Source: Candidatus Methylomirabilota bacterium (GTDB lineage: Bacteria; Methylomirabilota; Methylomirabilia; Rokubacteriales; CSP1-6). From it: DNA of 50,164 nucleotides. Under the pieces are notes generated by a model. It saw nothing but the letters and a program-made list of their open reading frames with translations. It ran no database searches and was not told the DNA's origin. The stretch spans positions 1 to 50,164 of the forward strand of contig DASZJM010000129.1 in assembly GCA_035948165.1 (NCBI GenBank). Direction: 5' to 3'. The translations under genes were made by a program, and so were the position numbers. Shown here one piece after another: positions 5,861 to 47,139 of this stretch; position 1 is the stretch's first letter, and each line of letters opens with the position of its first letter.

Positions 5861-6175
5861 ATGATGATCTCCCGACAGAACGATCGCCGCCGGCACCCCC
5901 GCTCGGACGTCTCCTGGCTCGTGGTCGTGGAGGCCGGGAAGCGCCGCTTCCTGCTCCAGACGGTGGACATCTCGGCCCGCGGCGCGAAGGTGCGGCCGCG
6001 GGAGCGCCTCGACATCGGCACGCCGGCGCAGCTTCGCTTCCGGCCGCCGGACGGGACCCCCTTCAACGTGCCGGCCCTGGTCTGGCGCACCGATTCCGAC
6101 GGGCTCGCCTTCCTCTTCATGGGGGACATCCAGGACCGCCTCCGCCGCTCCGGTCGCCTGCTCGCTACTTCTTGA
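5861..6175 (+). CDS. PilZ domain protein (putative c-di-GMP receptor), 104 aa
   Basis: Tail of ORF 4571..6175: MMISRQNDRRRHPRSDV (RxxxR) ... VDISARGAKV (DxSxxG). An alternative ATG at 5837 would lie inside the promoter-like element. Confidence 0.7.
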   Translation: MMISRQNDRRRHPRSDVSWLVVVEAGKRRFLLQTVDISARGAKVRPRERLDIGTPAQLRFRPPDGTPFNVPALVWRTDSDGLAFLFMGDIQDRLRRSGRLLATS

Positions 6176-11849: not shown

Positions 11850-13235
11850 CTAGGCGCGCTTCTCCGGCTGACGATCCAGCTGCAGCTCCCGCCAGCGGCG
11901 TGCCTTGTTGTGGAGGGTCTTCGGGGTGGTTCCCAGGATCTCGGCCGCGCGGGTCTTGTTGTTGTTCACCGACTGGAGCGTTCTCAGGATCAGCGCGCGC
12001 TCGCCATCGTCGAGGGTGGTCCCGAGCGGGAGGACCACCACGTTGGCCCGCTCCACCGGCGGGGTGCCGAGCGGCGACAGGGGCAGGCACTCGGGCGTGA
12101 TGAGCCCTTCCTCGCACGACACCACCGCGCGCTCGATCACGTTGCGGAGCTCGCGGACGTTGCCCGGCCAGTTGTGCTCGTTCAAGAGCTTGAGCGCGGC
12201 GCCGTCGACGCTGCGCACCTGACGGCTGTACTTCTCGTTGAACTCGGCGATGAACGCGTCGGCGAGCAGCGCGATGTCCTCCGGGCGCCGCCGCAGCGGC
12301 GGCAGCGGAATCGTCAGCACGTTGACCCGGTAGTAGAGGTCCTCGCGGAACACGCCCTCCTGCACCGCCTTGACCACGTCCTTGTTGGTCGCGGCCACCA
12401 CGCGCACGTCGACGCCGATCTCGTCGTGCCCGCCCACCCGGCGCACCTGGCTGTCCTGGAGCACGCGGAGGTACTTCGCCTGCAGGTTCGAGCTCATCTC
12501 CGCGATCTCGTCGAGGAAGATCGTGCCGCCGTCGGCCAGCTCGAAGTAGCCGGGCCGCCGGGCCATCGCGCCGGTGAACGCCCCCTTCTCGTGCCCGAAC
12601 AGCTCGCTCTCGAGGAGGGTCTCGGGGATCGCCGAGCAGTTGACCGCCACGAACGGCCCCTTCGCCCGCTGGGACATCTGGTGGATCGTACGGGCCACCA
12701 GCTCCTTGCCGGTCCCCGTCTCGCCCAGGATCAGCACCGGGGCCGGGCTCGGGGCCGCCATCTCGATCAGGCGATAGACCTCCTGCATCGCCGCGCTCAC
12801 GCCGAGGAGCGGGCCGAGCCCGCGGCTCTCCTTGAGCTGGCGGCGGAGCACGGTGACCTCGCGGTTCACCTGCACCTTCTCGACCGCCTTCTCGACCAGC
12901 ACGCGCAGCCGGCGCGGGTCCACCGGCTTGGTCATGTAGTCGTAGGCGCCCTCCCGCATGGCCGACACCGCGGTCTCGATCGAGCCATGAGCGGTCAGCA
13001 GGATCACCGCCGCCTCCGGCACCGCGGCGGCCAGGGGCTTCAGCAGCCCGATGCCGTCGATCACGGGCATGATCATGTCGGCGATCACCACCGAGGGCCG
13101 GAACGCGGGCGCGCGCTCGAGCGCATCCTTGCCGTCCACGGCCTCCTGCACCTCGTACCCCCACATGCTCAGGAGCGCCGCCAGCCCACTGCGGCCGGAC
13201 TCGTCGTCGTCAGCGATCAGGATGCGGTGCTTCAT
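11850..13235 (-). CDS. NtrC-family sigma-54-dependent response regulator (receiver + AAA+ + HTH)
   Basis: MKHRILIADDDESG...VVIADMIMP...TKPV receiver. AAA+ motifs GETGTGKE and GAFTGA (HEKGAFTGA), then WPGNVRELRNVIERA. C-terminal HTH NKTRAAEILGTTPKTLHNK. No adjacent kinase. Confidence 0.95.
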   Translation of the reverse strand: MKHRILIADDDESGRSGLAALLSMWGYEVQEAVDGKDALERAPAFRPSVVIADMIMPVIDGIGLLKPLAAAVPEAAVILLTAHGSIETAVSAMREGAYDYMTKPVDPRRLRVLVEKAVEKVQVNREVTVLRRQLKESRGLGPLLGVSAAMQEVYRLIEMAAPSPAPVLILGETGTGKELVARTIHQMSQRAKGPFVAVNCSAIPETLLESELFGHEKGAFTGAMARRPGYFELADGGTIFLDEIAEMSSNLQAKYLRVLQDSQVRRVGGHDEIGVDVRVVAATNKDVVKAVQEGVFREDLYYRVNVLTIPLPPLRRRPEDIALLADAFIAEFNEKYSRQVRSVDGAALKLLNEHNWPGNVRELRNVIERAVVSCEEGLITPECLPLSPLGTPPVERANVVVLPLGTTLDDGERALILRTLQSVNNNKTRAAEILGTTPKTLHNKARRWRELQLDRQPEKRA

Positions 13236-13303
13236 TGTTCGTCCCCTTTCGGGTGAGGGATGTGCGTCGCTGGCAAGCTCGATTGACACTCCGCGTCCGG
13301 ACT

Positions 13304-13318
13304 GCAATCGATGTGCCT
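13304..13318 (-). promoter_or_regulatory. Sigma-54-like -24/-12 element upstream of the NtrC-family activator gene
   Basis: Reverse strand reads AGGCAC-atcga-TTGCA (one mismatch, first base). 68 nt to ATG 13235. Confidence 0.45.
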
Positions 13319-13398
13319 CGAAATTTCCCGGTAAAAAAAGGTTCCGGCTCTGAGGCCACAAGTCCATTTCAAACTGCCGCTTTGCACCACGACCTGAA

Positions 13399-15588: not shown

Positions 15589-18500
15589 ATGATCGACGCC
15601 GGCGTGCTCCTCCAGCAAGCGGCGGCCGCGCTGCGCCACGAGCGCCGCGCGAGCTACCGCCTCCAGCTCGGGAGCGCGCTGGGCTTCGACGACGTGGCCG
15701 CCCTCGCGCCCTACCTGGACGCGCTCGGGGTCAGCGACGTCTACCTCTCGCCCTGCTTCCGGTGCGGCCCCGGCAGCTCCCACGGCTACGACGTCACCGA
15801 CCACAACGCGTTCAATCCCGAGCTCGGCAGCCCGGCCACCTTCGACCGGATGGCCGCCACCCTGTCCGCGCGCGGCCTCGGCCTCATCCTGGACGTGGTG
15901 CCGAACCACATGGGCATCGCGGGTGACGCCAACCCCTGGTGGCTCGACGTGCTCGAGAACGGCCCCGCCTCCCCGCGCGCCGAGTTCTTCGACATCGATT
16001 GGGCCCCGGCCAAGGCCGAGCTGCGCAATCGCGTGCTGCTGCCGATCCTGCCCGATCAGTACGGCCGCGTGCTCGAATCGCAGCAGCTCGCGCTCGAGTT
16101 CGTGGACGGCGCCTTCCACCTGCGGTACGCGGGCGCGCGCCTGCCGATCACCCCGCGCACCTACCCGCAGATCCTCACCGACGGGCTCGAGCCCCTGGCC
16201 GAGCGCCTCGGGCCGGAGGACCCCGGGCTCCAGGAGCTGCGCAGCATCCTGACCGCGATCGAGCATCTCCCCGGGCGCACCGAGACCGATCCGCGCCGGG
16301 TGGAGGAGCGCATGCGCGAGAAGGAGATCGTCAAGCGCCGCCTGCTCGCCCTCGTGAAGGAGTCGTCCGACATCCGGGAGCACATCGAGGAGACGGTGCG
16401 ACGGTTCAACGGGGTTCCCGGCGATCCGGCCTCCTTCGACGCGCTCGATCGGGTGCTCTCCGCGCAGACCTACCGCCTGGCCGACTGGCGCGTCGCGGGC
16501 GACGAGGTGAACTACCGCCGCTTCTTCGACGTGAGCCACCTCGCCGCGATCCGCATGGAGCGCCGCACCGTGTTCGACGCGACCCACCAGCTCGTCCTGC
16601 GCCTGGTCGGCGAGGGCAAGGTCACCGGGCTGCGCATCGATCACCCGGACGGCCTCTACGCGCCCGGCGAGTACTTCCGCCGCGTGCAGGAGGGCGCGCT
16701 GGTGGCCACCGCGCGGCGGCTGGTGCCCGAGCTGACCGGGCCGGAGGCGGAGGCGCTGGCCGCGCTCTACCGCACCCACGCGGCCGATCAAGCGGCCAGC
16801 CTGGAGGCCCGGCCGCTCTGGATCGCGGCCGAGAAGATCCTGGGCACGGACGAGCCCCTTCCGGGGTGGTGGGTGGTCGCCGGCACCACCGGCTACGATT
16901 TCCTCGCCAGCGTGAACGGGCTCTTCGTCGACCGCGGGACCTCGCGGCAGATGACCGCGCTCTACGCGCGGGTGGCCGGCGACGGCGCCCGCATGGCCGA
17001 TCTCACCTACGAGGCGAAGCGGCTCATCATGCAGGTCTCGATGGCGAGCGAGATCAATCAGCTCGGCTACCACCTCGACCGCATGTCCGAGCGTGACCGC
17101 CTCGCCCGCGACTTCACCCTGCCGAGCCTCGGGCGCGCGATCCGCGAGGTGGTGGCCGCCTTCGCGGTCTATCGCACCTACGTGGGCGACGACGGAAGCG
17201 ACGGCCCCGGTCCGCGCGATCGCGGCTACATCGAGTCCGCGGTCGCGGAGGCCAAGCGCCGCAACCCCACCGTGAACGTGTCGATCTTCGACTTCGTGCG
17301 CGACGTGCTGCTGCTGCGCCACCCGGAGCGGAGCGGATCCGACGAGCGCGCCGCGCGCCGCCACTTCGCGATGCGCTTCCAGCAGACCACCGGGCCGGTC
17401 ACCGCCAAGGGGGTGGAGGACACCGCCTTCTACCGCTACAACCGCCTGGTCTCGCTCAACGAGGTGGGCGGCGACCCCGCGCGCTACGGGGAGTCCGTCG
17501 CGGTGTTCCACGCGCGCAACCAGCAGCGGCTCGAGCGCTGGCCGGAGTCCATGCTCGCCACCTCGACCCACGACACCAAGCGCGGCGAGGACGTGCGCGC
17601 CCGCATCGACGTCCTCTCCGAGGTGCCCGACGCGTGGGCCGCCGAGGTTCGCCGCTGGCGCGGGATCGCCCGGCGCCTCAAGCGGCAAGTCGATGGCGAG
17701 GCCGCGCCCGACCGCAACGACGAGTACCTGCTCTACCAGACCCTGATGGGCGCCTGGCCCGCGCGCGACGAGGACGAGCCGCTCGCGACCGTCACCGATC
17801 GGCTGGTCGCCTACATGGAGAAGGCCACCAAGGAGGCGAAACGGCGCACGAGCTGGGTCAACCCGAGCGAGGGCTACGACGAGGCGATGCGCGGCTTCGT
17901 GCGGGCCCTGCTCGCCCCGGACGGCCCGTTCCTCGCCGCCTTCCGCCCCTTCCAGCGGCGCGTGGCCGCCCACGGGGCGGTCAACTCGCTCGCCCAGACG
18001 CTGCTCAAGCTCAGCGTCCCCGGCATGCCCGATCTCTACCAGGGCACCGAGCTGTGGGACCTCTCGCTGGTCGATCCGGACAACCGTCGCCCGGTGGACT
18101 TCGCGACGCGAGGGGCGCGCCTCGAGGCTCTGCGGGCCCGCATCGCGGCCCTCGAGGCCGCGGGCGGCGACGCCACCGGGCTCTGCGCCGAGCTGCTCAC
18201 CCAGTGGCCGGACGCCGGGGTGAAGCTCTACCTCACCCACCGAGCGCTCACCCTCCGGCGCGAGCGGGCCGCGCTCTTCGCCTCGGGCGCCTACCGCCCG
18301 CTCGAGACGAGCGGCACGCGCGCCGATCACCTGGTGGCGCTGGCCCGGACCGCCGGGGCGGACGCGGTGGTCACCGTGGTACCGCGCCTCACCGCGCGGC
18401 TCGGCGGGCTCACCGGCCGCATCCAGCTGGACGCGGCCACCTGGGAGCGGACCGCGGTCGTCCTCCCCGAGGAGCTCGCGGGCGCCTATCGCGACCGTCT

Positions 18501-18624
18501 CACCGGCCTCGGCGTGACGAGCGAGCGCCGCGACGGGGTCGCGGTGCTGCCCGCCGCGGCCCTCCTCGCCCGCTTCCCGGTCGCGCTCCTCGAGCGCGTC
18601 ACCGCCCCCGGTCCCGCCCGATGA
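15589..18624 (+). CDS. treY: Malto-oligosyltrehalose synthase
   Basis: 1011 aa. N-terminus SYRLQLGSALGFDDVAALAPYLDALGVSDVYLSPCF...SSHGYDVTDHN...ILDVVPNHMG plus the long TreY-specific middle and C-terminal regions. Confidence 0.9.
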   Translation: MIDAGVLLQQAAAALRHERRASYRLQLGSALGFDDVAALAPYLDALGVSDVYLSPCFRCGPGSSHGYDVTDHNAFNPELGSPATFDRMAATLSARGLGLILDVVPNHMGIAGDANPWWLDVLENGPASPRAEFFDIDWAPAKAELRNRVLLPILPDQYGRVLESQQLALEFVDGAFHLRYAGARLPITPRTYPQILTDGLEPLAERLGPEDPGLQELRSILTAIEHLPGRTETDPRRVEERMREKEIVKRRLLALVKESSDIREHIEETVRRFNGVPGDPASFDALDRVLSAQTYRLADWRVAGDEVNYRRFFDVSHLAAIRMERRTVFDATHQLVLRLVGEGKVTGLRIDHPDGLYAPGEYFRRVQEGALVATARRLVPELTGPEAEALAALYRTHAADQAASLEARPLWIAAEKILGTDEPLPGWWVVAGTTGYDFLASVNGLFVDRGTSRQMTALYARVAGDGARMADLTYEAKRLIMQVSMASEINQLGYHLDRMSERDRLARDFTLPSLGRAIREVVAAFAVYRTYVGDDGSDGPGPRDRGYIESAVAEAKRRNPTVNVSIFDFVRDVLLLRHPERSGSDERAARRHFAMRFQQTTGPVTAKGVEDTAFYRYNRLVSLNEVGGDPARYGESVAVFHARNQQRLERWPESMLATSTHDTKRGEDVRARIDVLSEVPDAWAAEVRRWRGIARRLKRQVDGEAAPDRNDEYLLYQTLMGAWPARDEDEPLATVTDRLVAYMEKATKEAKRRTSWVNPSEGYDEAMRGFVRALLAPDGPFLAAFRPFQRRVAAHGAVNSLAQTLLKLSVPGMPDLYQGTELWDLSLVDPDNRRPVDFATRGARLEALRARIAALEAAGGDATGLCAELLTQWPDAGVKLYLTHRALTLRRERAALFASGAYRPLETSGTRADHLVALARTAGADAVVTVVPRLTARLGGLTGRIQLDAATWERTAVVLPEELAGAYRDRLTGLGVTSERRDGVAVLPAAALLARFPVALLERVTAPGPAR

Positions 18625-20462
18625 CCGCGACCCCCACCGTCCGGCGCGCGCACCGCATGCCCTTTGGGGCTCTCCCGCAGGGCGACGGCGGCACCATGTT
18701 CCGGCTGTGGTCGCCGGGCGCGGACCGCGTCGAGCTCTGGCTGGAGGAGCCGAAGCGCGCGGTGCCGATGCCGCGCGACGCGGGCGGCTGGGCCGAGTAC
18801 GTGAGCCGCGAGGCGCCGCCCGGCACGCGCTATCGCTACCGCATCGACGGCGAGATGCTGGTGCCCGATCCGGCCGCCCGCTATCAGCCCGGCGACGTGC
18901 ACGGGGCGAGCGAGGTCGTCGATCCGCTCGCCTACGGCTGGCGCGACGGCGCGTGGGCCGGCCTGCCCCCCGAGCGGCTCGTCTTCTACGAGCTGCACGT
19001 GGGCACGTTCACGCCCGACGGCACCTTCCGCGGCGTGGCGGACCGGCTCGACCACCTGGCCTCGCTCGGGGTCACCGCGATCGAGCTGATGCCCGTCGCC
19101 GACTTCCCCGGCCGCTGGGGCTGGGGCTACGACGGCGTGCTCCTCTTCGCCCCCGAGGCGAGCTACGGGCACCCGGACGATCTCAAGGCCCTGGTGGACG
19201 GCTGCCACGCGCGCGGTCTCGCGGTCTTCCTCGACGTGGTGTACAACCACTTCGGCCCGGAGGGGAACTACCTCCACCGCTACGCCCCGGGCTTCTTCAC
19301 CCCACGCCACCGCTCGCTCTGGGGCGACGGCATCAACTACGACGGCCCGGGGGCCGAGATCGTCCGCTCCTTCATGATCCACAACGCGCTCTACTGGCTC
19401 GAGGAGTTCCACCTCGACGGTCTGCGCCTGGACGCGGTCAACGCGATCGTGGACGACTCGGCCGCGCATCTCCTGGTAGAGCTCGGGCGCGCGGTGGCCG
19501 ATGGACCCGGCCGCGAGCGCCCGGTGCACCTGGTCCTCGAGAACGGCGCCAACGAGGCGCGCTACCTCGAGCGCGCGGCGGATCGCCGCCCGCTCTACCA
19601 GGCCCAGTGGAACGACGACGCGCACCACGCGCTCCACGTGCTCCTCACCGGCGAGTCCGGCGGCTACTACGAGGACTACCAGCCTCCGCTGCCCCATCTC
19701 GGACGCTGCCTCACCGAGGGGTTCGCGTTCCAGGGCGAGCGCTCCGGGTACCGCGACGGTCTGCGCGGCGAGCCGAGCGGGCACCTGCCGCCGACCTCGT
19801 TCGTTGGCTTCCTGCAGAATCACGACCAGGTCGGCAACCGCGCGATGGGGGAGCGCATCACCGCGCTCGCCCAGGCGGACGCGGTCCGCGCGGCCACCGC
19901 GGTCCTCCTGCTCGCCCCCGCCCTGCCCCTGCTCTTCATGGGCGAGGAGTGGGCCGCCCCCGAGCCCTTCCTCTTCTTCAGCGACCTGGGATCCGACCTG
20001 GGGCCGTCGGTGGCGGAAGGCCGGCGCCGCGAGTTCGCGCGCTTCCCCGAGTTCGCGAGCCCCGCGATGCAGGAGCGCATCCCCGATCCCCAGGCCGCCA
20101 CCACGCGCGCGCGCTCCGTCCTCGACTGGGGCCGGCTCGCCGGGCCCGAGCACCAGGCCTGGCTCGCGCTCCACCGGACCCTCCTCCGGGTCCGCGCGGA
20201 GGCCATCGTGCCGCTGCTCGCGGCCGAGCCGACCCCGGCCGCTTCGTGGAAGGCGCTGGGCGAGACCGCGATCGAGATCGCGTGGAAGTTCCCGGCCGGC
20301 ACGCTGCGCCTGGTGGCGAACCTCGGGGCCGCTCCCATCGCCCATCCCGGCCCCGGTCCCGACTGGGGCCGGCGGCTCCACGCGCTGCTCCTGCCCGAGG
20401 GCGGCTGGCTGGAGCTGCCGCCGTGGAGCGCGGCGTTCTACCTCGCGGAGCCGGCGCGGTGA
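18621..20462 (+). CDS. treZ: Malto-oligosyltrehalose trehalohydrolase
   Basis: ATG 18621 overlaps the treY stop (ATGA). FRLWSPGADRVELWL...YRYRIDG...FYELHVGTFT...LGVTAIELMPV...GYDGV...FLDVVYNHFGPEGNYL...LDGLRLDAV (GH13). Confidence 0.9.
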   Translation: MTATPTVRRAHRMPFGALPQGDGGTMFRLWSPGADRVELWLEEPKRAVPMPRDAGGWAEYVSREAPPGTRYRYRIDGEMLVPDPAARYQPGDVHGASEVVDPLAYGWRDGAWAGLPPERLVFYELHVGTFTPDGTFRGVADRLDHLASLGVTAIELMPVADFPGRWGWGYDGVLLFAPEASYGHPDDLKALVDGCHARGLAVFLDVVYNHFGPEGNYLHRYAPGFFTPRHRSLWGDGINYDGPGAEIVRSFMIHNALYWLEEFHLDGLRLDAVNAIVDDSAAHLLVELGRAVADGPGRERPVHLVLENGANEARYLERAADRRPLYQAQWNDDAHHALHVLLTGESGGYYEDYQPPLPHLGRCLTEGFAFQGERSGYRDGLRGEPSGHLPPTSFVGFLQNHDQVGNRAMGERITALAQADAVRAATAVLLLAPALPLLFMGEEWAAPEPFLFFSDLGSDLGPSVAEGRRREFARFPEFASPAMQERIPDPQAATTRARSVLDWGRLAGPEHQAWLALHRTLLRVRAEAIVPLLAAEPTPAASWKALGETAIEIAWKFPAGTLRLVANLGAAPIAHPGPGPDWGRRLHALLLPEGGWLELPPWSAAFYLAEPAR

Positions 20463-21643
20463 TCACCCCCGGGGGGCTCACCGCGGGCGGCGGCCTTGGC
20501 CGCGATCGCGTCCCGGTACACCGCGAGCGTGCGCTCCGCGATGCGGTCCCAGGAGAAGTGCGCCTCGACGCGCCGGCGGCCGGCCTCGCCCATCCGGCGC
20601 GCGCGGGCCGGATCGGCGAGCGCGACGCGGAGCGCCTCCGCGAGCGCGGTCGGATCGCCCGGCGGGACGAGCCAGCCGGTCTCGCCGTCCACCACGACCT
20701 CGGGGATACCCCCGACGCGGCTCGCCACCACCGGGGTGCCGCACGCCATCGCCTCGAGGTTGATGAGGCCGAACGGCTCGTAGATCGACGGGCACACGAA
20801 CACGGACGCGTGGCTGTAGAGCTGCACGACCTCCGCGACCGGCAGCATCGCGTTGATCCAGCGCACGCGGGAGCGGCCGGCCACCGCGGCCTCGAGCCGG
20901 GCGGCCAGCTCCGGGGTATCGGGGCTGCTCGCGCAGAGCACCAGCGAGACGGCGTCGGGCAGCGCGCGGGCCGCCTCGAGCAGCGGGAAGATGCCCTTCT
21001 GCTCGCTGATGCGGCCGACGAAGAGCACGTACGGCTCGCGCACCCCGTGCCGCGCGAGGGCCTCCCGCTGCTCGGTCCGGCGGAACGCCTCCGCGTCGAC
21101 GCCGTTGTGGATCACCACCACCCGGTCCGGCTCCACCCGGAAGTGAACCAGGATGTCCTCCCGCATCTGGGCCGACACCGCGATCACGCGCTCCGCCCGC
21201 TCGACCGCGAGGCGCTCCGCCCAGGTCGACACCGCGTAGCCGGTGCCGAGCTGATCGGCCTTCCACGGCCGCAGCGGCTCCATGCTGTGGAGCGTGACCA
21301 CGAGCGGGAGGTCGTGGATCGCCTGCACCAGCATGCCTCCGAATCCCACGTACCACGTGTGGGTGTGGACGAGGTCGGCCGCGACCGGGTCGCGCGCCAT
21401 CGCGAGCCCGACCGAGAGCGCTTCCAGCGCGGGCGCGTACGCGACCTCCGGGCCGCCGTGGAGCCGCTCCCACGGGGCGTAGCCGCGCACGCTCAGGCGG
21501 GCCCCCGCGAGCGCCTGGTCGCCGAAGCAGCGCACCTCGACGGTGGCGCGGCGGGCGAGCGCGCGGCTCAGGTGGTCCACCACCACGCCGGCGCCGCCGT
21601 AGACGTGCGGCGGGTACTCGCGGCTCAGGAGCAGGATTCGCAT
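20438..21643 (-). CDS. glgM: GT4 glycosyltransferase of the actinobacterial-type GlgA/GlgM family (candidate maltose-1-phosphate synthase)
   Basis: MRILLLSREYPPHVYGGAGVVVDHLSRAL... with an intact EX7E motif in YEPFGLINLEAMACGTPVVAS. The GlgM call rests on genomic context with glgE. Convergent 25-nt overlap with treZ. Confidence 0.7.
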   Translation of the reverse strand: MRILLLSREYPPHVYGGAGVVVDHLSRALARRATVEVRCFGDQALAGARLSVRGYAPWERLHGGPEVAYAPALEALSVGLAMARDPVAADLVHTHTWYVGFGGMLVQAIHDLPLVVTLHSMEPLRPWKADQLGTGYAVSTWAERLAVERAERVIAVSAQMREDILVHFRVEPDRVVVIHNGVDAEAFRRTEQREALARHGVREPYVLFVGRISEQKGIFPLLEAARALPDAVSLVLCASSPDTPELAARLEAAVAGRSRVRWINAMLPVAEVVQLYSHASVFVCPSIYEPFGLINLEAMACGTPVVASRVGGIPEVVVDGETGWLVPPGDPTALAEALRVALADPARARRMGEAGRRRVEAHFSWDRIAERTLAVYRDAIAAKAAARGEPPGGDHRAGSAR

Positions 21644-21672
21644 CGACCTCGTCCTTGGGGAGAGCTTACCGC

Positions 21673-22335
21673 ATGAGCGAGACCCAGCCCTTCGTCTTCC
21701 TCGGCTGCCTCGACCTGAACGAGCTGCTGCCCCACGAGGCCCACGACGCCCGGGAGCTCGTCCAGCAGCTCGAGAAGGTGCCGGTCGAGTCGATCTTCTG
21801 CCACACGTCGGCGGCCCTCCTCCATCGCCCGGTGCTCGCGGAGGCGTACCCGAACGACTTCTCGCTGTGGGTGGGCACCGAGGTCCGCGACGTCCGCCTC
21901 GCGGAGCGGCTCGCCGCGGTGGACGCCTTCCACGCCGGCTCGATGGAGCGCGTGCGCGAGGAGCTCATCGCCACCATCTCCGATCACCTCCAGCACCTCG
22001 GCACCGCTCCGCCGCGCACCCAGGGCAAGCGCTTCCGCTTCTACCAGGTGCACCTGGTACCGGTGCCGACCGGGCACCAGGCCCGCACCCTCACCGAGTT
22101 CCGCGACGCGCTCGCGGAGGTCGACGTGAGCGCGCTCTTCTACCACACCATCGAGGCGCGCTATCGCGCGGGCCGCGGCCGGGGCGACTTCGCGGAGTGG
22201 GTCGGCGGGGTCCTCGCCCGTCCCGACCTGGCCGATCGGCTCGCCCACATCGATCCGCACGCGGGCAGCCTCGAGCGCATCCGCGATCGGCACCTGAGCG
22301 TGCTCAGCGACGCCATCGCCGGCGAGGCCGCCTGA
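21673..22335 (+). CDS. Uncharacterised protein, DUF5752-like by recollection
   Basis: MSETQPFVFLGCLDLNELLPHEAHDARELVQQLEKVPVESIFCHT... (220 aa). An alternative TTG start exists at 21655. The stop overlaps the next start (TGATG). Family name needs HMM confirmation. Confidence 0.6.
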   Translation: MSETQPFVFLGCLDLNELLPHEAHDARELVQQLEKVPVESIFCHTSAALLHRPVLAEAYPNDFSLWVGTEVRDVRLAERLAAVDAFHAGSMERVREELIATISDHLQHLGTAPPRTQGKRFRFYQVHLVPVPTGHQARTLTEFRDALAEVDVSALFYHTIEARYRAGRGRGDFAEWVGGVLARPDLADRLAHIDPHAGSLERIRDRHLSVLSDAIAGEAA

Positions 22336-23534
22336 TGGCCCCCGGCGCGCTGGTCAAGCTCGACGACTACCGCCAGGTCGCCCCCCGCGGCACGGTCGAC
22401 TTCCTCATGCGCATCGGCGAGCGCCTGCGCGGCAAGCGCCTCCTCCACGTGAGCGCGTCGCGCTACGGCGCGCTCGCCGAGAGCCTCGGCCGGGTGGTGG
22501 CGATCCTGAACGACCTGGGCGTCGAGACCACCTGGGAGATCACCATCGGCACCGCCGACTTCGACCAGGTGAGCCGCGCGGTGACCAAGGCGCTCGGGGG
22601 CACCGAGCAGGTCATCACCGAGGGCATGCTCGCGCGCCTGCGCGAGACCGGCATCGACAACGCCCGGCGCCTCCGCCTCGACGCCGACCTGGTGATGGTG
22701 CACGACGCGGCCCCGGTGGGCCTGGTGGAGCCGCGCGGGGAGACCGGCCGGTGGGTGTGGCGGTGCCACCAGGACCTCTCCTCGGCCCAGCCCCAGCTCT
22801 GGAACGCGCTGCGCCCGCTGGTCCAGCGCTACGACGCGGCGGTGTTCTCGCTCGCCCGCTTCGCGGCGCCGCTCTCCATCCCGCGCTTCATCGTCTATCC
22901 CGCGATCGATCCGCTCTCCGAGCGCAACCGGGAGATGAGCCGCAGCGAGCAGGCGCAGCAGATGGATCGGCTGCGGGTGCCGCGCGACAAGCCGATCCTC
23001 CTCCAGGTCGGGCCGTTCGAGCGCCAGCACGATCCGGCCGGGGTGATCAACGCCTACCGGCTCGTGAAGCGCCACCACGACGTCCGCCTCGTGCTGGCCG
23101 GGCCGCCCCCCGCCCCCGGCGGCGACGCCCTCGGCGACCTGCAGGAGGCGGCCTCCCACGACCCCGACATCTCGGTCATCCTGCTGCCGCCGGATCCCCA
23201 GACCGAGCTGAACGCGCTCGAGCGCGCCGCCACCATCGCGATCCAGAAGCCGCTGAAGGCCGATTTCACCCTGGAGGTGGCGACCGCGATGTGGAAGGGC
23301 AAGCCGGTCATCGGTACCATCGCGGGCGGCATCCCATTTCAGATGGTCGTCAACGTCACCGGGTATACCGTGGAGACCGTGGAGGGCGCCGCGTTCCGCA
23401 TCCGTCAGCTGTTGTCGAACCCCGAGCTCATCGGCCGGATGGGCGCGGCGGGGCGCGAGCACGTGCGCCGGAACTTCCTGGTGACCCGCCACCTGAGCGA
23501 CTACCTGGCGCTGCTCGCCCACCTGACCGGGTGA
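22335..23534 (+). CDS. TreT-like GT4 glycosyltransferase homologue lacking both EX7E glutamates (possible pseudo-enzyme)
   Basis: 399 aa. The C-terminal block ELNALERAATIAIQKPLKADFTLEVATAMWKGKPVIGTIAGGIPFQ closely resembles the trehalose glycosyltransferring synthase block ...REGFGLTVTEAMWKGKPVIG..., but with A309 and T317 at the E positions. The N-terminal HVSASRYGALAES stands in place of the Gly-rich HVNST..GGGVAE loop. Confidence 0.75.
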   Translation: MAPGALVKLDDYRQVAPRGTVDFLMRIGERLRGKRLLHVSASRYGALAESLGRVVAILNDLGVETTWEITIGTADFDQVSRAVTKALGGTEQVITEGMLARLRETGIDNARRLRLDADLVMVHDAAPVGLVEPRGETGRWVWRCHQDLSSAQPQLWNALRPLVQRYDAAVFSLARFAAPLSIPRFIVYPAIDPLSERNREMSRSEQAQQMDRLRVPRDKPILLQVGPFERQHDPAGVINAYRLVKRHHDVRLVLAGPPPAPGGDALGDLQEAASHDPDISVILLPPDPQTELNALERAATIAIQKPLKADFTLEVATAMWKGKPVIGTIAGGIPFQMVVNVTGYTVETVEGAAFRIRQLLSNPELIGRMGAAGREHVRRNFLVTRHLSDYLALLAHLTG

Positions 23535-24772
23535 TGGACACCGCGACCCTGCCCGACGAGGTCCAGGCGACGGTCGAGCGGCTCGGCAGCGCCGACGTCG
23601 TGATCGGCCTCGCCACCGCCGGCCCGATCCCCGCCCTCGCCGCGGTGGCGGCCGCGGTGCGCACCGGGCTCGACGCCCACTTCGCGGGCCAGGCCGCCGC
23701 GGTGGTCCACGTCGACCAGGCGCCGTCGGAGGCCACCGCCGCCGCGGTGACCGCGGCCCTCGGCGACCTGCGGGCGGTCTCGGTGCCCGCCCCGGGCGGT
23801 CACGGCGACGACGGGCTCGACTGGGCCTCCGCGGTGCGCGCGGTCCTCACGGTGGGCCGACGGCTCGAGGCGCGCGCGATCGTGATGCTCAACGCCGACC
23901 TGAGCAGCATGACCAGCGAGTGGCTCCGTGGCCTCGCCGTGCCGGTGCTCAAGGACGACTACGGCCTCATGCTGCCGCTCTACCGGCGCTACCGCTACGA
24001 CGGTACGCTCACCCAGGCCCTCGTGGTCCCGCTGATGCGGAGCCTCTTCGGTCGCCAGCTCGCGCACCCGCTCGCCGAGGAGTTCGCCTGCTCGGCCGCG
24101 GCGGCCGACTTCTTCCTCCAGCAGCCGATCTGGGAGAGCGAGCTCGGGCACCAGGGTCTCGAGTTCTGGATGCCCGCCGCCGCCATCGAGCAGGGGCTCA
24201 CGATCGGCCAGTCGGTGCTCGGGCCGCGCACGGTGGCCGCGGCGGCGCATCCGTCCGCGCCGCTCGGCCGCACGGTGGGCCGCGTGGCCGGCGCGCTCTT
24301 CGCCCTGGCCGACCGCGCGGAGAGCTTCTGGCTGGACATTCGCGGCTCCGAGCCGGTGGTGAGCTTCGGGGTGCCCCCCGAGCCCCTGCCCGGCGGCCCG
24401 CCGGTCGATCCCTCGCTGATGCAGGTGGGCTTCGTGCAAGGCGTGCGCGACCTGCTCCCGGTGTGGGAGCGCATCCTCGCGCCCGAGAACCTGGGCGAGG
24501 TGCTCGAGCTGAGCGATCGGCCGCTGGAGCGCTTCCGCTTTTCGGATCGCCTGTGGACCCGCGTGGTCTACGACTTCGTCCTCGCCTACCGCACCCGCGT
24601 GGTCTATCGCAGCCACGCGGCGCAGTCGCTGGCTCCTCTCTACCTCGGCCGCGCCGCCTCGGTGGTGCTGGAGACGCAGGGCCGGCCGCCGCTCGCCATG
24701 CTGCAGAGCGCGGCGCGGCTGGGCGGGATGTTCGAGGAGGAGAAGCCCTACCTGGTGGACCGGTGGCGATGA
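23534..24772 (+). CDS. GT-A-like glycosyltransferase-fold protein with degenerate motifs (family uncertain)
   Basis: 412 aa. ADVVIGLATAG...VVHVDQAPSEAT...IVMLNADLSS (NAD instead of DxD)...YGLMLPLYRRYRYDGTLTQ...LFGRQLAHPLAEEF. The start overlaps the previous stop (TGATG) and the stop overlaps the glgE start (ATGA). Confidence 0.55.
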   Translation: MDTATLPDEVQATVERLGSADVVIGLATAGPIPALAAVAAAVRTGLDAHFAGQAAAVVHVDQAPSEATAAAVTAALGDLRAVSVPAPGGHGDDGLDWASAVRAVLTVGRRLEARAIVMLNADLSSMTSEWLRGLAVPVLKDDYGLMLPLYRRYRYDGTLTQALVVPLMRSLFGRQLAHPLAEEFACSAAAADFFLQQPIWESELGHQGLEFWMPAAAIEQGLTIGQSVLGPRTVAAAAHPSAPLGRTVGRVAGALFALADRAESFWLDIRGSEPVVSFGVPPEPLPGGPPVDPSLMQVGFVQGVRDLLPVWERILAPENLGEVLELSDRPLERFRFSDRLWTRVVYDFVLAYRTRVVYRSHAAQSLAPLYLGRAASVVLETQGRPPLAMLQSAARLGGMFEEEKPYLVDRWR

Positions 24773-26751
24773 AGCCCGAGCGCCGCCCCATCGTCATCGA
24801 GCACGTCCGCCCCGCGGTGGACGACGGCCGGTATCCGGCCAAGCGCGTGGTGGGCGATACCCTCGCGGTCTCGGCGGACATCTTCAAGGAGGGGCACGAC
24901 CTGCTGGCCGCGCGCGTCTGCTACCGGCGGCGCGACGAGTCGGGCTGGCACGAGGCCCCGCTCCGCCTCGTCGACAACGACGGCTGGGGCGGCGCCTTCC
25001 GGCTCGAGGCCAACGCCCGCTACCTCTACACCGTGGAGGCCTGGACCGACGCCTTCGGCTCGTGGGGCGAGGAGATGCGGAGGCGCATCAAGGGCGGCCA
25101 GGCCGACCTCACGAGCGAGCTGCTCGAGGGCGCCGAGATGGTGCGGCGCGCGCGCGCCACCGTCTCCGGCGCCGACCAGGCCGCGCTCGCCCGCGCCCTC
25201 GAGCGTGTGGCGGGGGCGTCGTCGCAGGACGCGCGCCTCGACGCGCTGCTCGACGGCGATCTCCGCCAGCTCATGGCCCGCGTGGCGCCGCGGCCCGATC
25301 TCACCCGCTACGACCGCGAGCTGGAGGTGGTGGTCGACCGGCCGGAGGCCGGCTTCGCGGCGTGGTACGAGATGTTCCCGCGCTCGCAGGGCCGGCTGCC
25401 CGGGCGCCACGGCACCTTCGACGACTGCATCGAGCGGCTGCCGGACATCCGGCGGATGGGCTTCGACGTCGTCTACCTGCCGCCGATCCACCCGATCGGC
25501 CGCACCGCCCGCAAGGGGCCCGACAACGCGCTCGACGCCGGGCCCAGCGACCCGGGCAGCCCGTGGGCCATCGGCGGTCCCGAGGGCGGCCACACCGCGG
25601 TGCACCCCGAGCTCGGCGACCTCGAGACCTTTCGCCGCCTCGTGAAGAGCGCGCGGGGCCTGGGGCTCGAGATCGCGCTCGACTTCGCGATCCAGTGCTC
25701 GCCCGACCACCCGTGGGTGCGCGAGCATCCCGAGTGGTTCCACCGGCGCCCGGATGGGACGATCAAGTACGCGGAGAACCCGCCCAAGAAGTACCAGGAC
25801 ATCTACCCGATCAACTTCGCCACCGAGGCGTGGCCCGCCCTGTGGGACGCGCTGCTCGGGGTGGTGCGCTTCTGGATCGAGCAGGGGGTGCGGACGTTCC
25901 GGGTCGACAATCCCCACACCAAGCCGCTCGACTTCTGGGCGTGGCTCATCCGGCAAGTGCAGGACCGTGATCCGGACGTGATCTTTCTCTCCGAGGCCTT
26001 CACCCGCCCCAAGGTCATGCGGGCGCTCGCCAAGGCCGGCTTCACCCAGTCCTACACCTACTTCACGTGGCGGAACTTCAAGGAGGAGCTGACCGAGTAC
26101 CTGGAGGAGCTCACCCGGTCGGAGATGGTCGAGTACTTCCGCGGCAACTTCTTCGTGAACACCCCCGACATCCTCCCCGAGGTGCTCCAGCGCGGGGGCA
26201 CGCCCGCCTTCCGCATGCGGGCGACGCTCGCGGCCACGCTGTCCACCGTGTGGGGCATCTACAGCGGGTTCGAGCTGGGGGAGTCGGCGGCCCTGCCCGG
26301 CAGCGAGGAGTACCAGGGCTCGGAGAAGTACGAGATCCGGGTCCGCGACTGGGACGCGCCGGGCCACCTGAAGGACCACATCGCGCGGCTCAACGTCATC
26401 CGGCGCGAGAACCGTGCCCTGCACGCGATGCGCGGCCTCCGCTTCTACCCCTCGAGCAGCCCGCACGTGCTCTTCTACAGCAAGATGACCCCGGAGCGCG
26501 ACAACGTGATCCTGGTCGCGGTGAACCTCGATCCGTTCGCCACCCACGAGAGCACGCTCGAGATCCCGCTCGAGGAGATCGGCATCGCGGCCGACGAGAC
26601 CTACGAGCTGCACGAGCTGCTCGCCGACCAGCGGCGCCTCATCCGCGGCGGCCGGCACACCGTGAGCCTCGACCCGCGCACCGCCTCCGCCCACGTCTAC
26701 CGCCTCGGCCGCTGGCGCCGCCGCGAGCGGGACTTCGACTACTACGCGTGA
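24769..26751 (+). CDS. glgE: Alpha-1,4-glucan:maltose-1-phosphate maltosyltransferase
   Basis: 660 aa. MKPERRPIVIEHVRPAVDDGRYPAKRVVGDTLAVSADIFKEGHD...AWYEMFPRS...FDVVYLPPIHPIG...FRVDNPHTKP, typical of GlgE. Confidence 0.9.
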   Translation: MKPERRPIVIEHVRPAVDDGRYPAKRVVGDTLAVSADIFKEGHDLLAARVCYRRRDESGWHEAPLRLVDNDGWGGAFRLEANARYLYTVEAWTDAFGSWGEEMRRRIKGGQADLTSELLEGAEMVRRARATVSGADQAALARALERVAGASSQDARLDALLDGDLRQLMARVAPRPDLTRYDRELEVVVDRPEAGFAAWYEMFPRSQGRLPGRHGTFDDCIERLPDIRRMGFDVVYLPPIHPIGRTARKGPDNALDAGPSDPGSPWAIGGPEGGHTAVHPELGDLETFRRLVKSARGLGLEIALDFAIQCSPDHPWVREHPEWFHRRPDGTIKYAENPPKKYQDIYPINFATEAWPALWDALLGVVRFWIEQGVRTFRVDNPHTKPLDFWAWLIRQVQDRDPDVIFLSEAFTRPKVMRALAKAGFTQSYTYFTWRNFKEELTEYLEELTRSEMVEYFRGNFFVNTPDILPEVLQRGGTPAFRMRATLAATLSTVWGIYSGFELGESAALPGSEEYQGSEKYEIRVRDWDAPGHLKDHIARLNVIRRENRALHAMRGLRFYPSSSPHVLFYSKMTPERDNVILVAVNLDPFATHESTLEIPLEEIGIAADETYELHELLADQRRLIRGGRHTVSLDPRTASAHVYRLGRWRRRERDFDYYA

Positions 26752-26882
26752 GATGAGATGCTTTCTCGCTTACCCGCCCACCCACGAGCGTCCGGGGCAG
26801 TGGCTTGGCGAGGTGCAGCCGAAGGCGAGCCGAGCGGATACATAATGAAGCTTCCGGTGTCAGCCCACTAAGCGAGGCCCAG

Positions 26883-29974
<3,092 letters not shown>

Positions 29975-29994
<20 letters not shown>

Positions 29995-34128: not shown

Positions 34129-35454
34129 TCAGACGAGCGTCAGCTGGTCCCCCGCCCGCACCAGCACCCGCGCGCGGGCGCCGTCCACCCAGCTCTCGCC
34201 CGGGTTCAGCACCACCGAGGTGGAGCGCACCAGGAAGGAGCGCGGGTTGGCGCCGGGGGCGGGCGTGCCGTGGTCGCGGAGGGCGCGGGCCGCGGTCATC
34301 ATGCGGCGGCGCACCTGGATGATCGCGGTGTCGCTCGAGCCCAGCCGCTCCTGGCTGCGGTCCACGATGTCCCCCTGGCTCTCCTGCACCGCCTGGTCCT
34401 GCACCCCGAAGCCCGGGATCCCGCAGTACATCCGGGTGCGATGGACCTCCCAGTCCATGAAGTAGTCGTTCTCACGATTGGCCGCGGTACGCACGTCGCC
34501 GTAGGGCTCAGAGGTGGCGGGGGCGTAGTCGCACACGTGCGCGCCCTTGCCCTCGACGTGGAGCTGGATCTCCTCGGGGGTGAGCTTGCGGTCCGGGTGC
34601 CAGGTCACCATCCAGTTCACCACGTGGGTGTCGTCCATCGGGACCCAGATGTGCGACTGGACCACGCGCTCGTCGAGGTCGGTGGGCGGCATCGTGTAGA
34701 ACGGGAGCAGGAACTGGGTGACGCGCCAGTACCAGCGGCCGTCGGGACTGCCGCGCCGGGCCCCGATCAGCACCCCGTAGTCGGTGTCGACCACCTCGAA
34801 GCGGGGCGCCCGGTCGCCGGTGGAGACCGCCGCCCCGACCCCGAAGCTCACCCGGTCCATGTCCTGGGTGACCTCGCTGTTGCGGTGATCGATCGGCGCG
34901 TGCAGGAACGAGATGTGGCTCGAGTCGATGCCGCCCTCGAGGGCCTGGAACCAGTTGCAGTCCTGCACCCGCCGCGACGTGAACGTGTGCCCCTCGGGCA
35001 GCAACGTCCACTCGAGCTCCGGCAGGGCCGGCGGCGTGCTCTCCGGGCCCATGTAGGCGAAGACGACGCCGCCCGCCTCCACGCACGGATAGGCGGCGGT
35101 CTTCACCTTGGACGCGAAGCCCGACTCCGGCGGCTCGCTCGGCATCTCCTCGCATTGGCCGTCGAGGCCGAACTTCCAGCCGTGGTAGGCGCAGCGCATC
35201 CCCGCGTCCTCCACGCGCCCGTAGAAGAGCGAGGCGGAGCGATGCGGGCAGAACTCGCCGATGAGCCCGGCCCGGCCGCTCTTGCCGCGGAACGCGATCA
35301 GCCGCTCGCCCAGGAGCTGCACGCGCTTCACGCGCCCGCCCGGCGCCAGCTCCTTCGACTCGACCACGGGGATCCAGTAGCGGCGAACGAGATCGCCCAT
35401 GGGCGTGCCCGGTCCGGTGCGGGTCAGGAGCTCGTTGTCCTCGCGGCTCAGCAT
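34129..35454 (-). CDS. Rieske [2Fe-2S] non-heme iron oxygenase, alpha-subunit type
   Basis: CPHRSASLFYGRVEDAGMRCAYHGWKF (CxH...CxxH) and the mononuclear iron motif DSSHISFLH. 441 aa. No beta subunit or reductase adjacent. Confidence 0.9.
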   Translation of the reverse strand: MLSREDNELLTRTGPGTPMGDLVRRYWIPVVESKELAPGGRVKRVQLLGERLIAFRGKSGRAGLIGEFCPHRSASLFYGRVEDAGMRCAYHGWKFGLDGQCEEMPSEPPESGFASKVKTAAYPCVEAGGVVFAYMGPESTPPALPELEWTLLPEGHTFTSRRVQDCNWFQALEGGIDSSHISFLHAPIDHRNSEVTQDMDRVSFGVGAAVSTGDRAPRFEVVDTDYGVLIGARRGSPDGRWYWRVTQFLLPFYTMPPTDLDERVVQSHIWVPMDDTHVVNWMVTWHPDRKLTPEEIQLHVEGKGAHVCDYAPATSEPYGDVRTAANRENDYFMDWEVHRTRMYCGIPGFGVQDQAVQESQGDIVDRSQERLGSSDTAIIQVRRRMMTAARALRDHGTPAPGANPRSFLVRSTSVVLNPGESWVDGARARVLVRAGDQLTLV

Positions 35455-47134: not shown

Positions 47135-47139
47135 GCCGC

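What the first reader, a model, noticed from the sequence alone, without database searches (positions are those of the whole stretch)
23259..23285. TreT-like protein has lost both glutamates of the GT4 EX7E motif
Compare the C-terminal Rossmann block with the intact GT4 enzyme in this same window. GlgM-like reads S-I-Y-E-P-F-G-L-I-N-L-E-A-M-A-C-G-T-P-V. TreT-like reads P-L-K-A-D-F-T-L-E-V-A-T-A-M-W-K-G-K-P-V. The positions are therefore Ala309 (codon 23259-23261) and Thr317 (23283-23285). The surrounding AMWKGKPVIG..GGIPFQ is otherwise very TreT-like, as far as I recall the archaeal enzyme sequences. The N-terminal Gly-rich loop is also replaced (SASRYGALAES). In retaining GT-B enzymes these residues contact the donor sugar nucleotide, so canonical activity is doubtful.
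Basis: partly seen in the sequence, partly recalled or inferred. Interest (0 to 1): 0.65.

Follow-up and report, generated by a model that had tools for sequence, protein, structure and literature searches.

The report
TreT paralogue with gutted donor site
A trehalose-synthase-like gene of an uncultured soil bacterium has lost almost every residue that holds the sugar-nucleotide donor, yet it is conserved, transcribed and tightly joined to a trehalose/alpha-glucan operon. It most likely survives as a non-catalytic partner protein rather than as an enzyme.

Summary
The gene at 22335-23534 (+) encodes a full-length TreT homologue (E=2.7e-85 to a solved TreT). In a gap-free alignment, Ala309 and Thr317 sit where TreT has the two glutamates of EX7E.

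The loss is wider than reported. The Arg/Lys diphosphate pair (P227, H232), Ser226, Lys197, the GGGVAE loop and the PQ of HDPQ are also replaced.

It is not strain-specific. None of 112 clade members has Glu at 309 and one has it at 317, whereas all 68 canonical TreTs have both.

The gene is under purifying selection (dN/dS 0.14-0.22, like GlgE and GlgM next door). It also appears in soil metatranscriptome contigs. Within the clade the former catalytic positions are the most variable ones, which fits a disused site better than new chemistry.

The gene lies in a translationally coupled run: OrfY-like DUF5752, TreT-like, a GT-A protein with the mannosylglycerate-synthase/GpgS fold, then GlgE. 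The GT-A partner has eroded nucleotide motifs in the same clade.

Best reading: a pseudo-glycosyltransferase kept as a non-catalytic subunit. This rests on sequence evidence only and has not been tested biochemically.

The parts
22335..23534 (+). TreT-like GT-B protein, 399 aa, the subject of the finding
   Evidence: PF21269 TreT_GT1 (109 bits) plus PF00534. NF041139 TreT scores 237.7 bits against a cut-off of 775. 6zj4 TreT E=2.7e-85 over residues 13-398.
23259..23285 (+). Remnant of the EX7E motif: A309-D-F-T-L-E-V-A-T317
   Evidence: Aligned to E-G-F-G-L-T-V-S-E of solved TreTs. In 112 clade members Glu occurs 0 times at 309 and once at 317.
23010..23033 (+). Remnant of the GT4 Arg/Lys diphosphate-binding motif: G226-P-F-E-R-Q-H-D233 (canonical S-R-F-D-R-F-K-D)
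   Evidence: R and K are 100% conserved in canonical TreTs. The clade has P (88%) and H (79%).
22452..22484 (+). Degenerate Gly-rich loop: S40-ASRYGALAE-S50 (canonical STxxGGGVAEI)
   Evidence: Positions 45-48 are hypervariable in the clade (1.5-2.7 bits).
22701..22712 (+). H123-D-A-A126 (canonical HDPQ): H and D kept, PQ lost
21674..22335 (+). DUF5752 / OrfY-like protein. Its stop codon overlaps the TreT-like start (TGATG).
   Evidence: PF19027, 177.5 bits. PDB 4cso 'ORFY protein, transcription factor', E=3.1e-22. Junction sequence. Lies upstream of the TreT genes in the related loci.
23534..24772 (+). GT-A-fold protein ('X412', 412 aa) with the mannosylglycerate-synthase/GpgS fold and eroded nucleotide and metal motifs. 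Its start overlaps the TreT-like stop (TGATG).
   Evidence: No Pfam or NCBIfam hit. AF2 pLDDT 86.4. Foldseek 2y4j/2bo4, TM 0.68-0.74. Family profile against GpgS, E=2.5e-7. Motif table. Junction.
24769..26751 (+). GlgE maltosyltransferase. Its start overlaps the X412 stop (ATGA).
   Evidence: PF11896 and PF21702. Junction.
26805..28556 (+). TreS (maltose alpha-D-glucosyltransferase)
   Evidence: TIGR02456, 931 bits.
28531..29994 (+). Maltokinase-like protein (Mak/Pep2)
   Evidence: TIGR02457, 333.5 bits, below the cut-off of 375; PF18085.
20438..21643 (-). Intact GT4 GlgM/GlgA-Coryne-type enzyme, divergent neighbour, used as the internal EX7E control
   Evidence: TIGR02149, 501 bits against a cut-off of 302. 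EPFGLINLE is present.
15589..20462 (+). TreY (15589-18624) and TreZ (18630-20462)
   Evidence: TIGR02401 and TIGR02402 above cut-off.

Best explanation
The gene encodes a catalytically dead paralogue of the NDP-glucose:glucose trehalose synthase TreT, that is, a pseudo-glycosyltransferase. It keeps the GT-B scaffold and much of the N-domain (H123, D124, the WRCHxD block, AMWKGKP). It has lost the elements that hold the nucleotide-sugar donor. It is kept because it serves as a non-catalytic subunit of a conserved module: OrfY-like DUF5752, the TreT-like protein and a GT-A protein of the mannosylglycerate-synthase/GpgS fold. This module is made together with GlgE and probably regulates or scaffolds the trehalose/alpha-glucan cycle, possibly by binding a sugar in the retained acceptor-side pocket.

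Shown: homology, loss of the residues, clade-wide conservation, purifying selection, relaxed constraint at the former catalytic positions, operon coupling, and presence in metatranscriptome contigs.

Inferred: lack of activity, complex formation, and a regulatory role.
For: (1) The protein is a full-length TreT homologue.

(2) A 2026 TreT study placed eight conserved residues within 5 A of the predicted ADP site: K205, S268, R269, K274, G311, E377, L381 and E385, plus the GGGVAE motif (PMC13166879). By motif correspondence (my own mapping), six of the eight are replaced here: K197R, S226G, R227P, K232H, E309A and E317T. The Gly loop is also degenerate. In GT4 enzymes the first Glu binds the donor sugar, the second binds the ribose hydroxyls, and the Arg/Lys pair binds the pyrophosphate. 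Glu-to-Ala changes inactivated TviE (PMC8760489).

(3) The changes are shared by all 112 clade proteins and by loci L001-L012.

(4) dN/dS is 0.14-0.22 against close orthologues. That is equal to or below GlgE, GlgM, TreZ and TreY in the same genome pairs.

(5) Within the clade, positions that changed from the canonical state have mean entropy 1.28 bits. Retained conserved positions have 0.15 bits and all other positions 0.70 bits. The old site is therefore unconstrained rather than re-specified.

(6) TGATG, TGATG and ATGA overlaps join DUF5752, TreT-like, X412 and GlgE. An RNA-derived contig spans the TreT-like/X412 junction.

(7) Erosion occurs only in the X412-linked lineage. All 38 eroded TreT-likes with room downstream have X412, against 18 of 41 intact ones. 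The erosion is graded across lineages: RKEE, then PKEE, then PxxE, then PHAT.

(8) There is a precedent. A T. tenax GT4 protein activates the trehalose synthase TPSP by complex formation (PMC3634074).
Against: No biochemical data exist. Some GT4 enzymes tolerate loss of one Glu (PMC8760489).

The clade gained acidic residues nearby: D310 in 88 of 112 and E/D314 in 98 of 112. It also keeps R230 and usually H232. These could form an altered site.

The partner X412 is itself eroded in this clade, so it is unclear what catalytic subunit would be regulated, unless it is GlgE, TreS or another enzyme.

Complex formation is inferred only from synteny and overlapping start and stop codons. The AF2 model of the protein was of low confidence, so no pocket geometry could be examined.
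Confidence: 0.6

Rival explanations
1. Neofunctionalised enzyme. The GT-B scaffold now works on a non-nucleotide substrate, for example glucose-1-phosphate, maltose-1-phosphate, trehalose or maltose, as a phosphorylase or transglycosylase. It would use migrated acids (D310, E/D314) and H232/R230 in place of EX7E and the Arg/Lys pair.
For: D310 is present in 88 of 112 and E/D314 in 98 of 112 clade members, against G and T/V in canonical TreTs. R230 is invariant and H232 is present in 79%. Clade-specific near-invariant residues exist: R197, E296, P306, G226 and others. The operon handles maltose-1-phosphate through GlgE and Mak. From my own knowledge, GT4 also contains the fungal trehalose phosphorylases, which use glucose-1-phosphate.
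Against: 13 of 112 orthologues have no acid at either 310 or 314, and 11 have none in the whole 307-318 block. The replaced positions are the most variable in the protein, which is the opposite of what a new active site predicts. From my own knowledge, GT4 trehalose phosphorylase is reported to use the same Arg/Lys pair for phosphate, and that pair is lost here.
Confidence: 0.22
2. It is still a working TreT that binds NDP-glucose in an unusual way.
For: The overall TreT similarity is high. 46 of 69 family-conserved positions are kept. The importance of individual EX7E glutamates varies among GT4 enzymes.
Against: Both Glu, the Arg, the Lys, Ser226 and the GGG loop are lost together. The loop is hypervariable in the clade. 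The score is far below the curated TreT cut-off. A TreT deposited in PDB carries Ala at the first Glu position; from my own knowledge this is the E326A mutant, presumably made to hold UDP-glucose without turnover.
Confidence: 0.08
3. It is a decaying relic with no function, on its way to becoming a pseudogene.
For: The catalytic motifs are eroded, and so are those of the neighbouring X412.
Against: The reading frame is intact in every locus. dN/dS is 0.14-0.22, and dN is lower than for GlgE, GlgM, TreZ and TreY. More than 100 positions are invariant across 40 sequences. The gene appears in soil and groundwater metatranscriptome contigs. The overlapping start and stop codons are kept.
Confidence: 0.03

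Closest known systems
TreT, trehalose glycosyltransferring synthase (EC 2.4.1.245, GT4); solved structures 6zj4 and 2x6q
   Same: Same two-domain GT-B architecture with the TreT-specific N-domain (PF21269). Full-length alignment, E=2.7e-85. HD, WRCHxD, IDPLSExN and AMWKGKPVIG..GGI blocks are kept. An OrfY/DUF5752 gene lies next to it.
   Different: The GGGVAE loop, S226, R227, K232, E309, E317, K197 and the PQ of HDPQ are replaced. It scores 237.7 bits against the curated cut-off of 775. It is linked to a GT-A gene and to GlgE.
P. horikoshii TreT with Ala at the first EX7E Glu (PDB 2xa2/2xa9/2xmp)
   Same: Carries Ala at exactly the position of A309: IRAGFGL in 2xa2 against IREGFGL in 2x6q.
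   Different: That is one change in an otherwise intact enzyme. Here it is natural and comes with at least five further donor-site losses.
T. tenax GT4 'GT' (TTX_1305), which activates the trehalose synthase/phosphatase TPSP
   Same: A GT4 protein in a trehalose operon whose demonstrated role is activation through complex formation, not its own catalysis (PMC3634074).
   Different: It is a different GT4 subfamily, closest to PimA. Its partner is a GT20 TPSP. Whether its own catalytic motifs are intact was not examined here.
Non-catalytic paralogues in trehalose synthesis: yeast Tsl1/Tps3 (cited in PMC3634074) and plant class II TPS (own knowledge)
   Same: Enzyme-derived subunits retained for regulation of trehalose metabolism.
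   Different: They derive from GT20/TPP, not GT4/TreT, and are eukaryotic.
GtfB/Gtf2, the non-catalytic GT-B partner of the GT4 enzyme GtfA in streptococcal adhesin glycosylation (own knowledge, not checked here)
   Same: A GT-B fold protein without a working donor site that acts as an obligatory partner of another glycosyltransferase encoded next to it.
   Different: Its partner is a catalytically intact GT-B enzyme. Here the adjacent GT-A partner also looks eroded.
Pseudo-glycosyltransferases VldE/ValL (OtsA-like, GT20)
   Same: Relatives of a trehalose-synthesising enzyme that no longer make a glycosidic bond (PMC3441724 and PMC12041759, listed).
   Different: From my own knowledge they are active enzymes that use an NDP-activated donor and so need the nucleotide site. 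The protein here has lost that site.

Membership tests
TreT (EC 2.4.1.245; NCBIfam NF041139) | GT-B fold with the TreT-type N-terminal domain and full-length homology to solved TreTs | tested here: met
   PF21269 at 109 bits against a cut-off of 27. 6zj4 E=2.7e-85 and 2x6q E=1.7e-67, covering residues 8-398.
TreT (EC 2.4.1.245; NCBIfam NF041139) | Score above the curated equivalog cut-off | tested here: not met
   237.7 bits against 775. The model is built for Thermococcales, so this alone is a weak test.
TreT (EC 2.4.1.245; NCBIfam NF041139) | GGGVAE nucleotide-recognition loop | tested here: not met
   The loop is YG-ALAES, with a one-residue deletion. It is variable in the clade. The motif is cited as nucleotide-binding in PMC13166879.
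TreT (EC 2.4.1.245; NCBIfam NF041139) | Arg/Lys pair (SRFDxxKD) that binds the diphosphate | tested here: not met
   The motif is GPFERQHD. R is replaced by P (88% of the clade) and K by H (79%).
TreT (EC 2.4.1.245; NCBIfam NF041139) | Both glutamates of EX7E | tested here: not met
   A309 and T317. In 112 clade members Glu occurs 0 and 1 times at these positions, against 68 of 68 canonical TreTs.
TreT (EC 2.4.1.245; NCBIfam NF041139) | HDPQ and WRCHxD motifs of the N-domain | tested here: inconclusive
   H123 and D124 are near-invariant and WRCHQD is kept. P125 and Q126 are lost.
TreT (EC 2.4.1.245; NCBIfam NF041139) | [quoted passage not shown] | not testable with these tools
   Needs an enzyme assay.
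CAZy GT4 (by sequence) | Glycos_transf_1 C-terminal domain | tested here: met
   PF00534 at 54.8 bits against a cut-off of 26.4.
Pseudoenzyme (non-catalytic enzyme paralogue) | Clear homology to an enzyme family together with loss of its catalytic or substrate-binding residues | tested here: met
Pseudoenzyme (non-catalytic enzyme paralogue) | Maintained by purifying selection and expressed | tested here: met
   dN/dS 0.14-0.22. Metatranscriptome contigs cover the gene with no variant at 23259-23285. Such libraries can contain DNA.
Pseudoenzyme (non-catalytic enzyme paralogue) | Demonstrated lack of catalytic activity and a demonstrated non-catalytic role | not testable with these tools
   Needs biochemistry and genetics.

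The most novel reading that the evidence does not exclude
In this Rokubacteria-type clade a GT-B protein (TreT-like) and a GT-A protein (mannosylglycerate-synthase/GpgS-like) have both lost nucleotide-sugar binding. Together with the OrfY-like DUF5752 protein they would form a purely non-catalytic, sugar-sensing regulatory complex. It would be co-translated with GlgE and would control flux, for example of toxic maltose-1-phosphate, through the trehalose/alpha-glucan cycle. This would be a two-pseudoenzyme module with no described counterpart.
Probability: 0.22. Interest if true: 0.75.

Novelty: new variant of a known kind. Interest (0 to 1): 0.55.

Why it matters
These proteins are annotated as 'trehalose synthase' in public data (JGI names). 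For this clade that label is probably wrong, and metabolic reconstructions of abundant uncultured soil Rokubacteria and Methylomirabilota would wrongly credit them with a TreT pathway.

The family also offers a natural series of stepwise active-site loss (RKEE, then PKEE, then PxxE, then PHAT), tied to the acquisition of a GT-A partner gene. That is useful material for studying how pseudoenzymes arise.

If the module regulates GlgE, it would be a new control layer on a pathway whose intermediate, maltose-1-phosphate, is toxic.

It also gives the uncharacterised DUF5752/OrfY family a clear genomic partner: the TreT family.

Tried and rejected
1. AF2 model of the TreT-like protein, built from a 40-sequence alignment at 69-93% identity. 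It gave pLDDT 43.8 and pTM 0.26, too poor to use. No fold search was run on it, and I draw no conclusion from it about folding.

2. phmmer of X412 against PDB found nothing. Its kinship came only from the AF2 model plus Foldseek and from a family profile.

3. Literature searches for DUF5752, for OrfY with Thermoproteus, for TreT-like paralogues and for Rokubacteria with trehalose found no prior description of this clade. The T. uzoniensis TreT structure paper could not be fetched.

4. Long TreT-containing proteins were checked as possible informative fusions (P0010, P0121, P0151, P0177, P0212, P0215). There were no DUF5752 or X412 fusions. P0121 is a chimera with a molybdopterin domain, and P0010 has an unmatched N-terminal extension.

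5. E314 or D310 as displaced catalytic acids: rejected as a general feature of the clade because they are not universally conserved. Kept as a rival explanation.

6. Assembly or sequencing artefact: rejected. The same sequence occurs in about 20 independent soil metagenome runs and in RNA-derived contigs.

7. No second TreT gene was found among the larger ORFs of the 50-kb window that I scanned. The rest of the genome could not be examined.

Full report
**Observation.** The ORF list and translation place a 399-aa protein at 22335-23534 (+). The divergent neighbour at 20438-21643 (-) is an intact GT4 enzyme: TIGR02149 scores 501 bits against a cut-off of 302, and the motif EPFGLINLE is present.

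The protein has the TreT-specific N-domain (PF21269) and a GT4 C-domain (PF00534). It reaches only 237.7 bits on the curated TreT model, whose cut-off is 775. phmmer against PDB finds TreT structures over the full length: 6zj4 at E=2.7e-85 and 2x6q at E=1.7e-67. The block QKPLKADFTLEVATAMWKGKPVIG aligns without gaps, at top posterior probability, to QKSIKEGFGLTVSEALWKRKPVIG. A309 and T317 therefore occupy the two EX7E glutamate positions. E314 pairs with a Thr of TreT. One deposited P. horikoshii TreT sequence (2xa2) has Ala at the first Glu position, like this protein.

**The loss is broader than reported.** The same alignments, a 68-sequence canonical TreT set and 112 clade members were compared. 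They show these changes:
- GGGVAE to G-ALAE
- HDPQ to HDAA
- SEKN to SERN (K197R)
- SRFDRFKD to GPFERQHD (S226G, R227P, K232H)
- Q296E and S306P
- E309A, G310D and E317T

A 2026 TreT study lists K205, S268, R269, K274, G311, E377, L381 and E385, plus GGGVAE, as the conserved residues around the nucleotide (PMC13166879). By motif correspondence, six of those eight are replaced here. In GT4 enzymes the first Glu contacts the donor sugar, the second contacts the ribose hydroxyls, and the Arg/Lys pair contacts the pyrophosphate (PMC8760489).

**It is not strain-specific.** 120 database proteins at 70-98% identity all carry the substitutions, except one that keeps Glu at 317. So do genome loci L001-L012 at 62-91% identity. 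These come mostly from MAGs labelled Methylomirabilota, Methylomirabilia or Rokubacteria. The window sequence itself recurs in about 20 soil metagenome runs.

Nei-Gojobori dN/dS against close orthologues is 0.14-0.22. In the same genome pairs that is equal to or lower than GlgE, GlgM, TreZ and TreY. Forty sequences share more than 100 invariant positions. Metatranscriptome contigs from four runs cover the gene with no variant at 23259-23285, and one contig spans the junction with the next gene. Such libraries can contain DNA.

**A disused site, not a re-specified one.** Of 69 positions that are at least 90% conserved in canonical TreTs, 46 are kept in the clade and 23 are changed. Within the clade the changed positions have mean entropy 1.28 bits. 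The kept positions have 0.15 bits and all other positions 0.70 bits. The former donor-binding positions are thus the least constrained part of the protein.

D310 (88 of 112) and E/D314 (98 of 112) are common gains. However, 13 orthologues have neither, and 11 have no acidic residue in the whole 307-318 block. This favours loss of the site over a migrated catalytic acid, without excluding the latter for the sub-lineage that contains the window.

**Context.** The order in the window is TreY, TreZ, GlgM-like (-), DUF5752, TreT-like, a 412-aa ORF (X412), GlgE, TreS, Mak. Stop and start codons overlap at three successive junctions:

| Junction | Overlap | Coordinates |
|---|---|---|
| DUF5752 / TreT-like | TGATG | 22333-22337 |
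| TreT-like / X412 | TGATG | 23532-23536 |
| X412 / GlgE | ATGA | 24769-24772 |

DUF5752 is homologous to PDB 4cso, 'ORFY protein, transcription factor' (E=3.1e-22). It is an internal duplication, with its two halves 37% identical (E=1e-12).

X412 has no Pfam, NCBIfam or PDB sequence hit. Its AF2 model (pLDDT 86.4) matches mannosylglycerate synthase over its full length (TM 0.68-0.74) and then GpgS. A family profile hits GpgS at E=2.5e-7. Some JGI records name it glucosylglycerate synthase.

**Comparative picture.** There are 82 TreT-family genes in the 80 genome loci. A DUF5752 gene was detected within 2.6 kb upstream in 74 of the 77 that have room upstream. Two of the remaining three overlap the TreT start and one is cut off by the contig end, so DUF5752 accompanies canonical TreTs as well.

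X412 follows only one lineage. In a rough NJ tree without bootstrap support, that lineage is monophyletic and nested among canonical bacterial TreTs. The donor site erodes stepwise within it:

| Lineage | State at R227 / K232 / E309 / E317 |
|---|---|
| Nitrospira type | R K E E |
| NC10 type | P K E E |
| A second Rokubacteria group | P x (E/A/G/T) E |
| The window's clade | P H A T |

All 38 eroded genes with room downstream are followed by X412, against 18 of 41 intact ones. These counts are not phylogenetically independent.

In the window's clade X412 has also lost typical GT-A motifs, whereas its relatives keep them:
- YNNAxT to AGPIPA
- DxGSxD to DQAPSE
- D/ExD to NAD
- GGE to AEE

Its C-terminal helical half stays highly conserved. 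DUF5752 keeps 48 of 58 family-conserved positions.

**Mechanism.** The evidence best fits a pseudo-glycosyltransferase. The scaffold is kept under selection, cannot hold NDP-glucose, and works as a non-catalytic subunit of the DUF5752, TreT-like and X412 module made together with GlgE. A regulatory or scaffolding role in the trehalose/alpha-glucan cycle is inferred, perhaps through sugar binding by the retained acceptor-side residues.

Precedents exist. A T. tenax GT4 protein activates the trehalose synthase TPSP by complex formation, and yeast Tsl1 and Tps3 are regulatory subunits of the trehalose synthase complex (PMC3634074).

Three rivals remain:
- An enzyme re-tooled for a non-nucleotide donor. 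D310, E314, H232 and R230 leave this open (confidence 0.22).
- An unusual but working TreT (0.08).
- A functionless relic, which the selection and expression data contradict (0.03).

**Novelty and limits.** Non-catalytic glycosyltransferase paralogues are a known kind. I found no description of a TreT-derived one, of the graded series, or of co-erosion with a GT-A partner. Everything about activity and interaction is inference from sequence. The AF2 model of the protein itself failed for lack of alignment depth. Only the 50-kb window, not the whole genome, could be checked for a second TreT.

Noticed in passing
window 23534-24772 (+): A 412-aa ORF with no Pfam, NCBIfam or PDB sequence hit has the mannosylglycerate-synthase/GpgS GT-A fold. 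In this clade its own nucleotide and metal motifs are eroded (YNNAxT to AGPIPA, DxGSxD to DQAPSE, DxD to NAD, GGE to AEE), while Nitrospira, NC10 and other Rokubacteria homologues keep them. It may be a second pseudo-glycosyltransferase in the same operon.
   Followed up: yes
window 21674-22335 (+): DUF5752 is homologous to PDB 4cso, 'ORFY protein, transcription factor' (E=3e-22). It is an internal tandem duplication (halves 37% identical, E=1e-12). It accompanies the TreT-family genes, canonical or eroded, in the 80 related loci. No paper on the family was found.
   Followed up: partly
window 22333-22337, 23532-23536, 24769-24772: Three successive stop/start overlaps (TGATG, TGATG, ATGA) join DUF5752, TreT-like, X412 and GlgE. 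This suggests translational coupling of all four.
   Followed up: partly
window 21643-21674: About 30 bases separate the divergent start codons of the GlgM-like gene (-) and DUF5752 (+). That is too short for two ordinary promoters, so the promoters or an operator must lie inside coding sequence, or one start is mis-set (a TTG at 21655 is an alternative).
   Followed up: no
L016 4161-9951, L027 4544-10338, L044 5351-11072: NC10/Methylomirabilis-type loci carry two DUF5752-TreT pairs a few kb apart. One is partly eroded (R to P) and followed by X412. The other is canonical (RKEE, about 41% identical). So the paralogues coexist.
   Followed up: partly
window 28531-29994 (+): The maltokinase-like gene scores below its NCBIfam cut-off (333.5 against 375). 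It has the highest dN/dS of the cluster (0.35-0.44 against close orthologues).
   Followed up: no
L003, L005, L012; P0301: Near-identical operons sit in MAGs labelled Acidoferrum, Limnocylindria, Verrucomicrobiia or Nitrosotalea. This points to mis-binning or recent transfer, so the taxonomic labels of these MAGs should not be trusted for this locus.
   Followed up: no
representatives P0261, P0187, P0236, P0269, P0270, P0141, P0170 and others: Several other distant TreT-family lineages also lack one or both EX7E glutamates or the Arg/Lys pair. Active-site erosion seems to have happened repeatedly in this family.
   Followed up: no
window 6165-8480 (-), 11850-13367 (-), 34129-35454 (-), 46972-49179 (+): Ordinary flanking genes unrelated to the finding: a class A penicillin-binding protein, a sigma-54-dependent response regulator, a Rieske/LigXa-like oxygenase and a hydantoinase/oxoprolinase. 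No GlgB was found among the ORFs scanned downstream of Mak.
   Followed up: no
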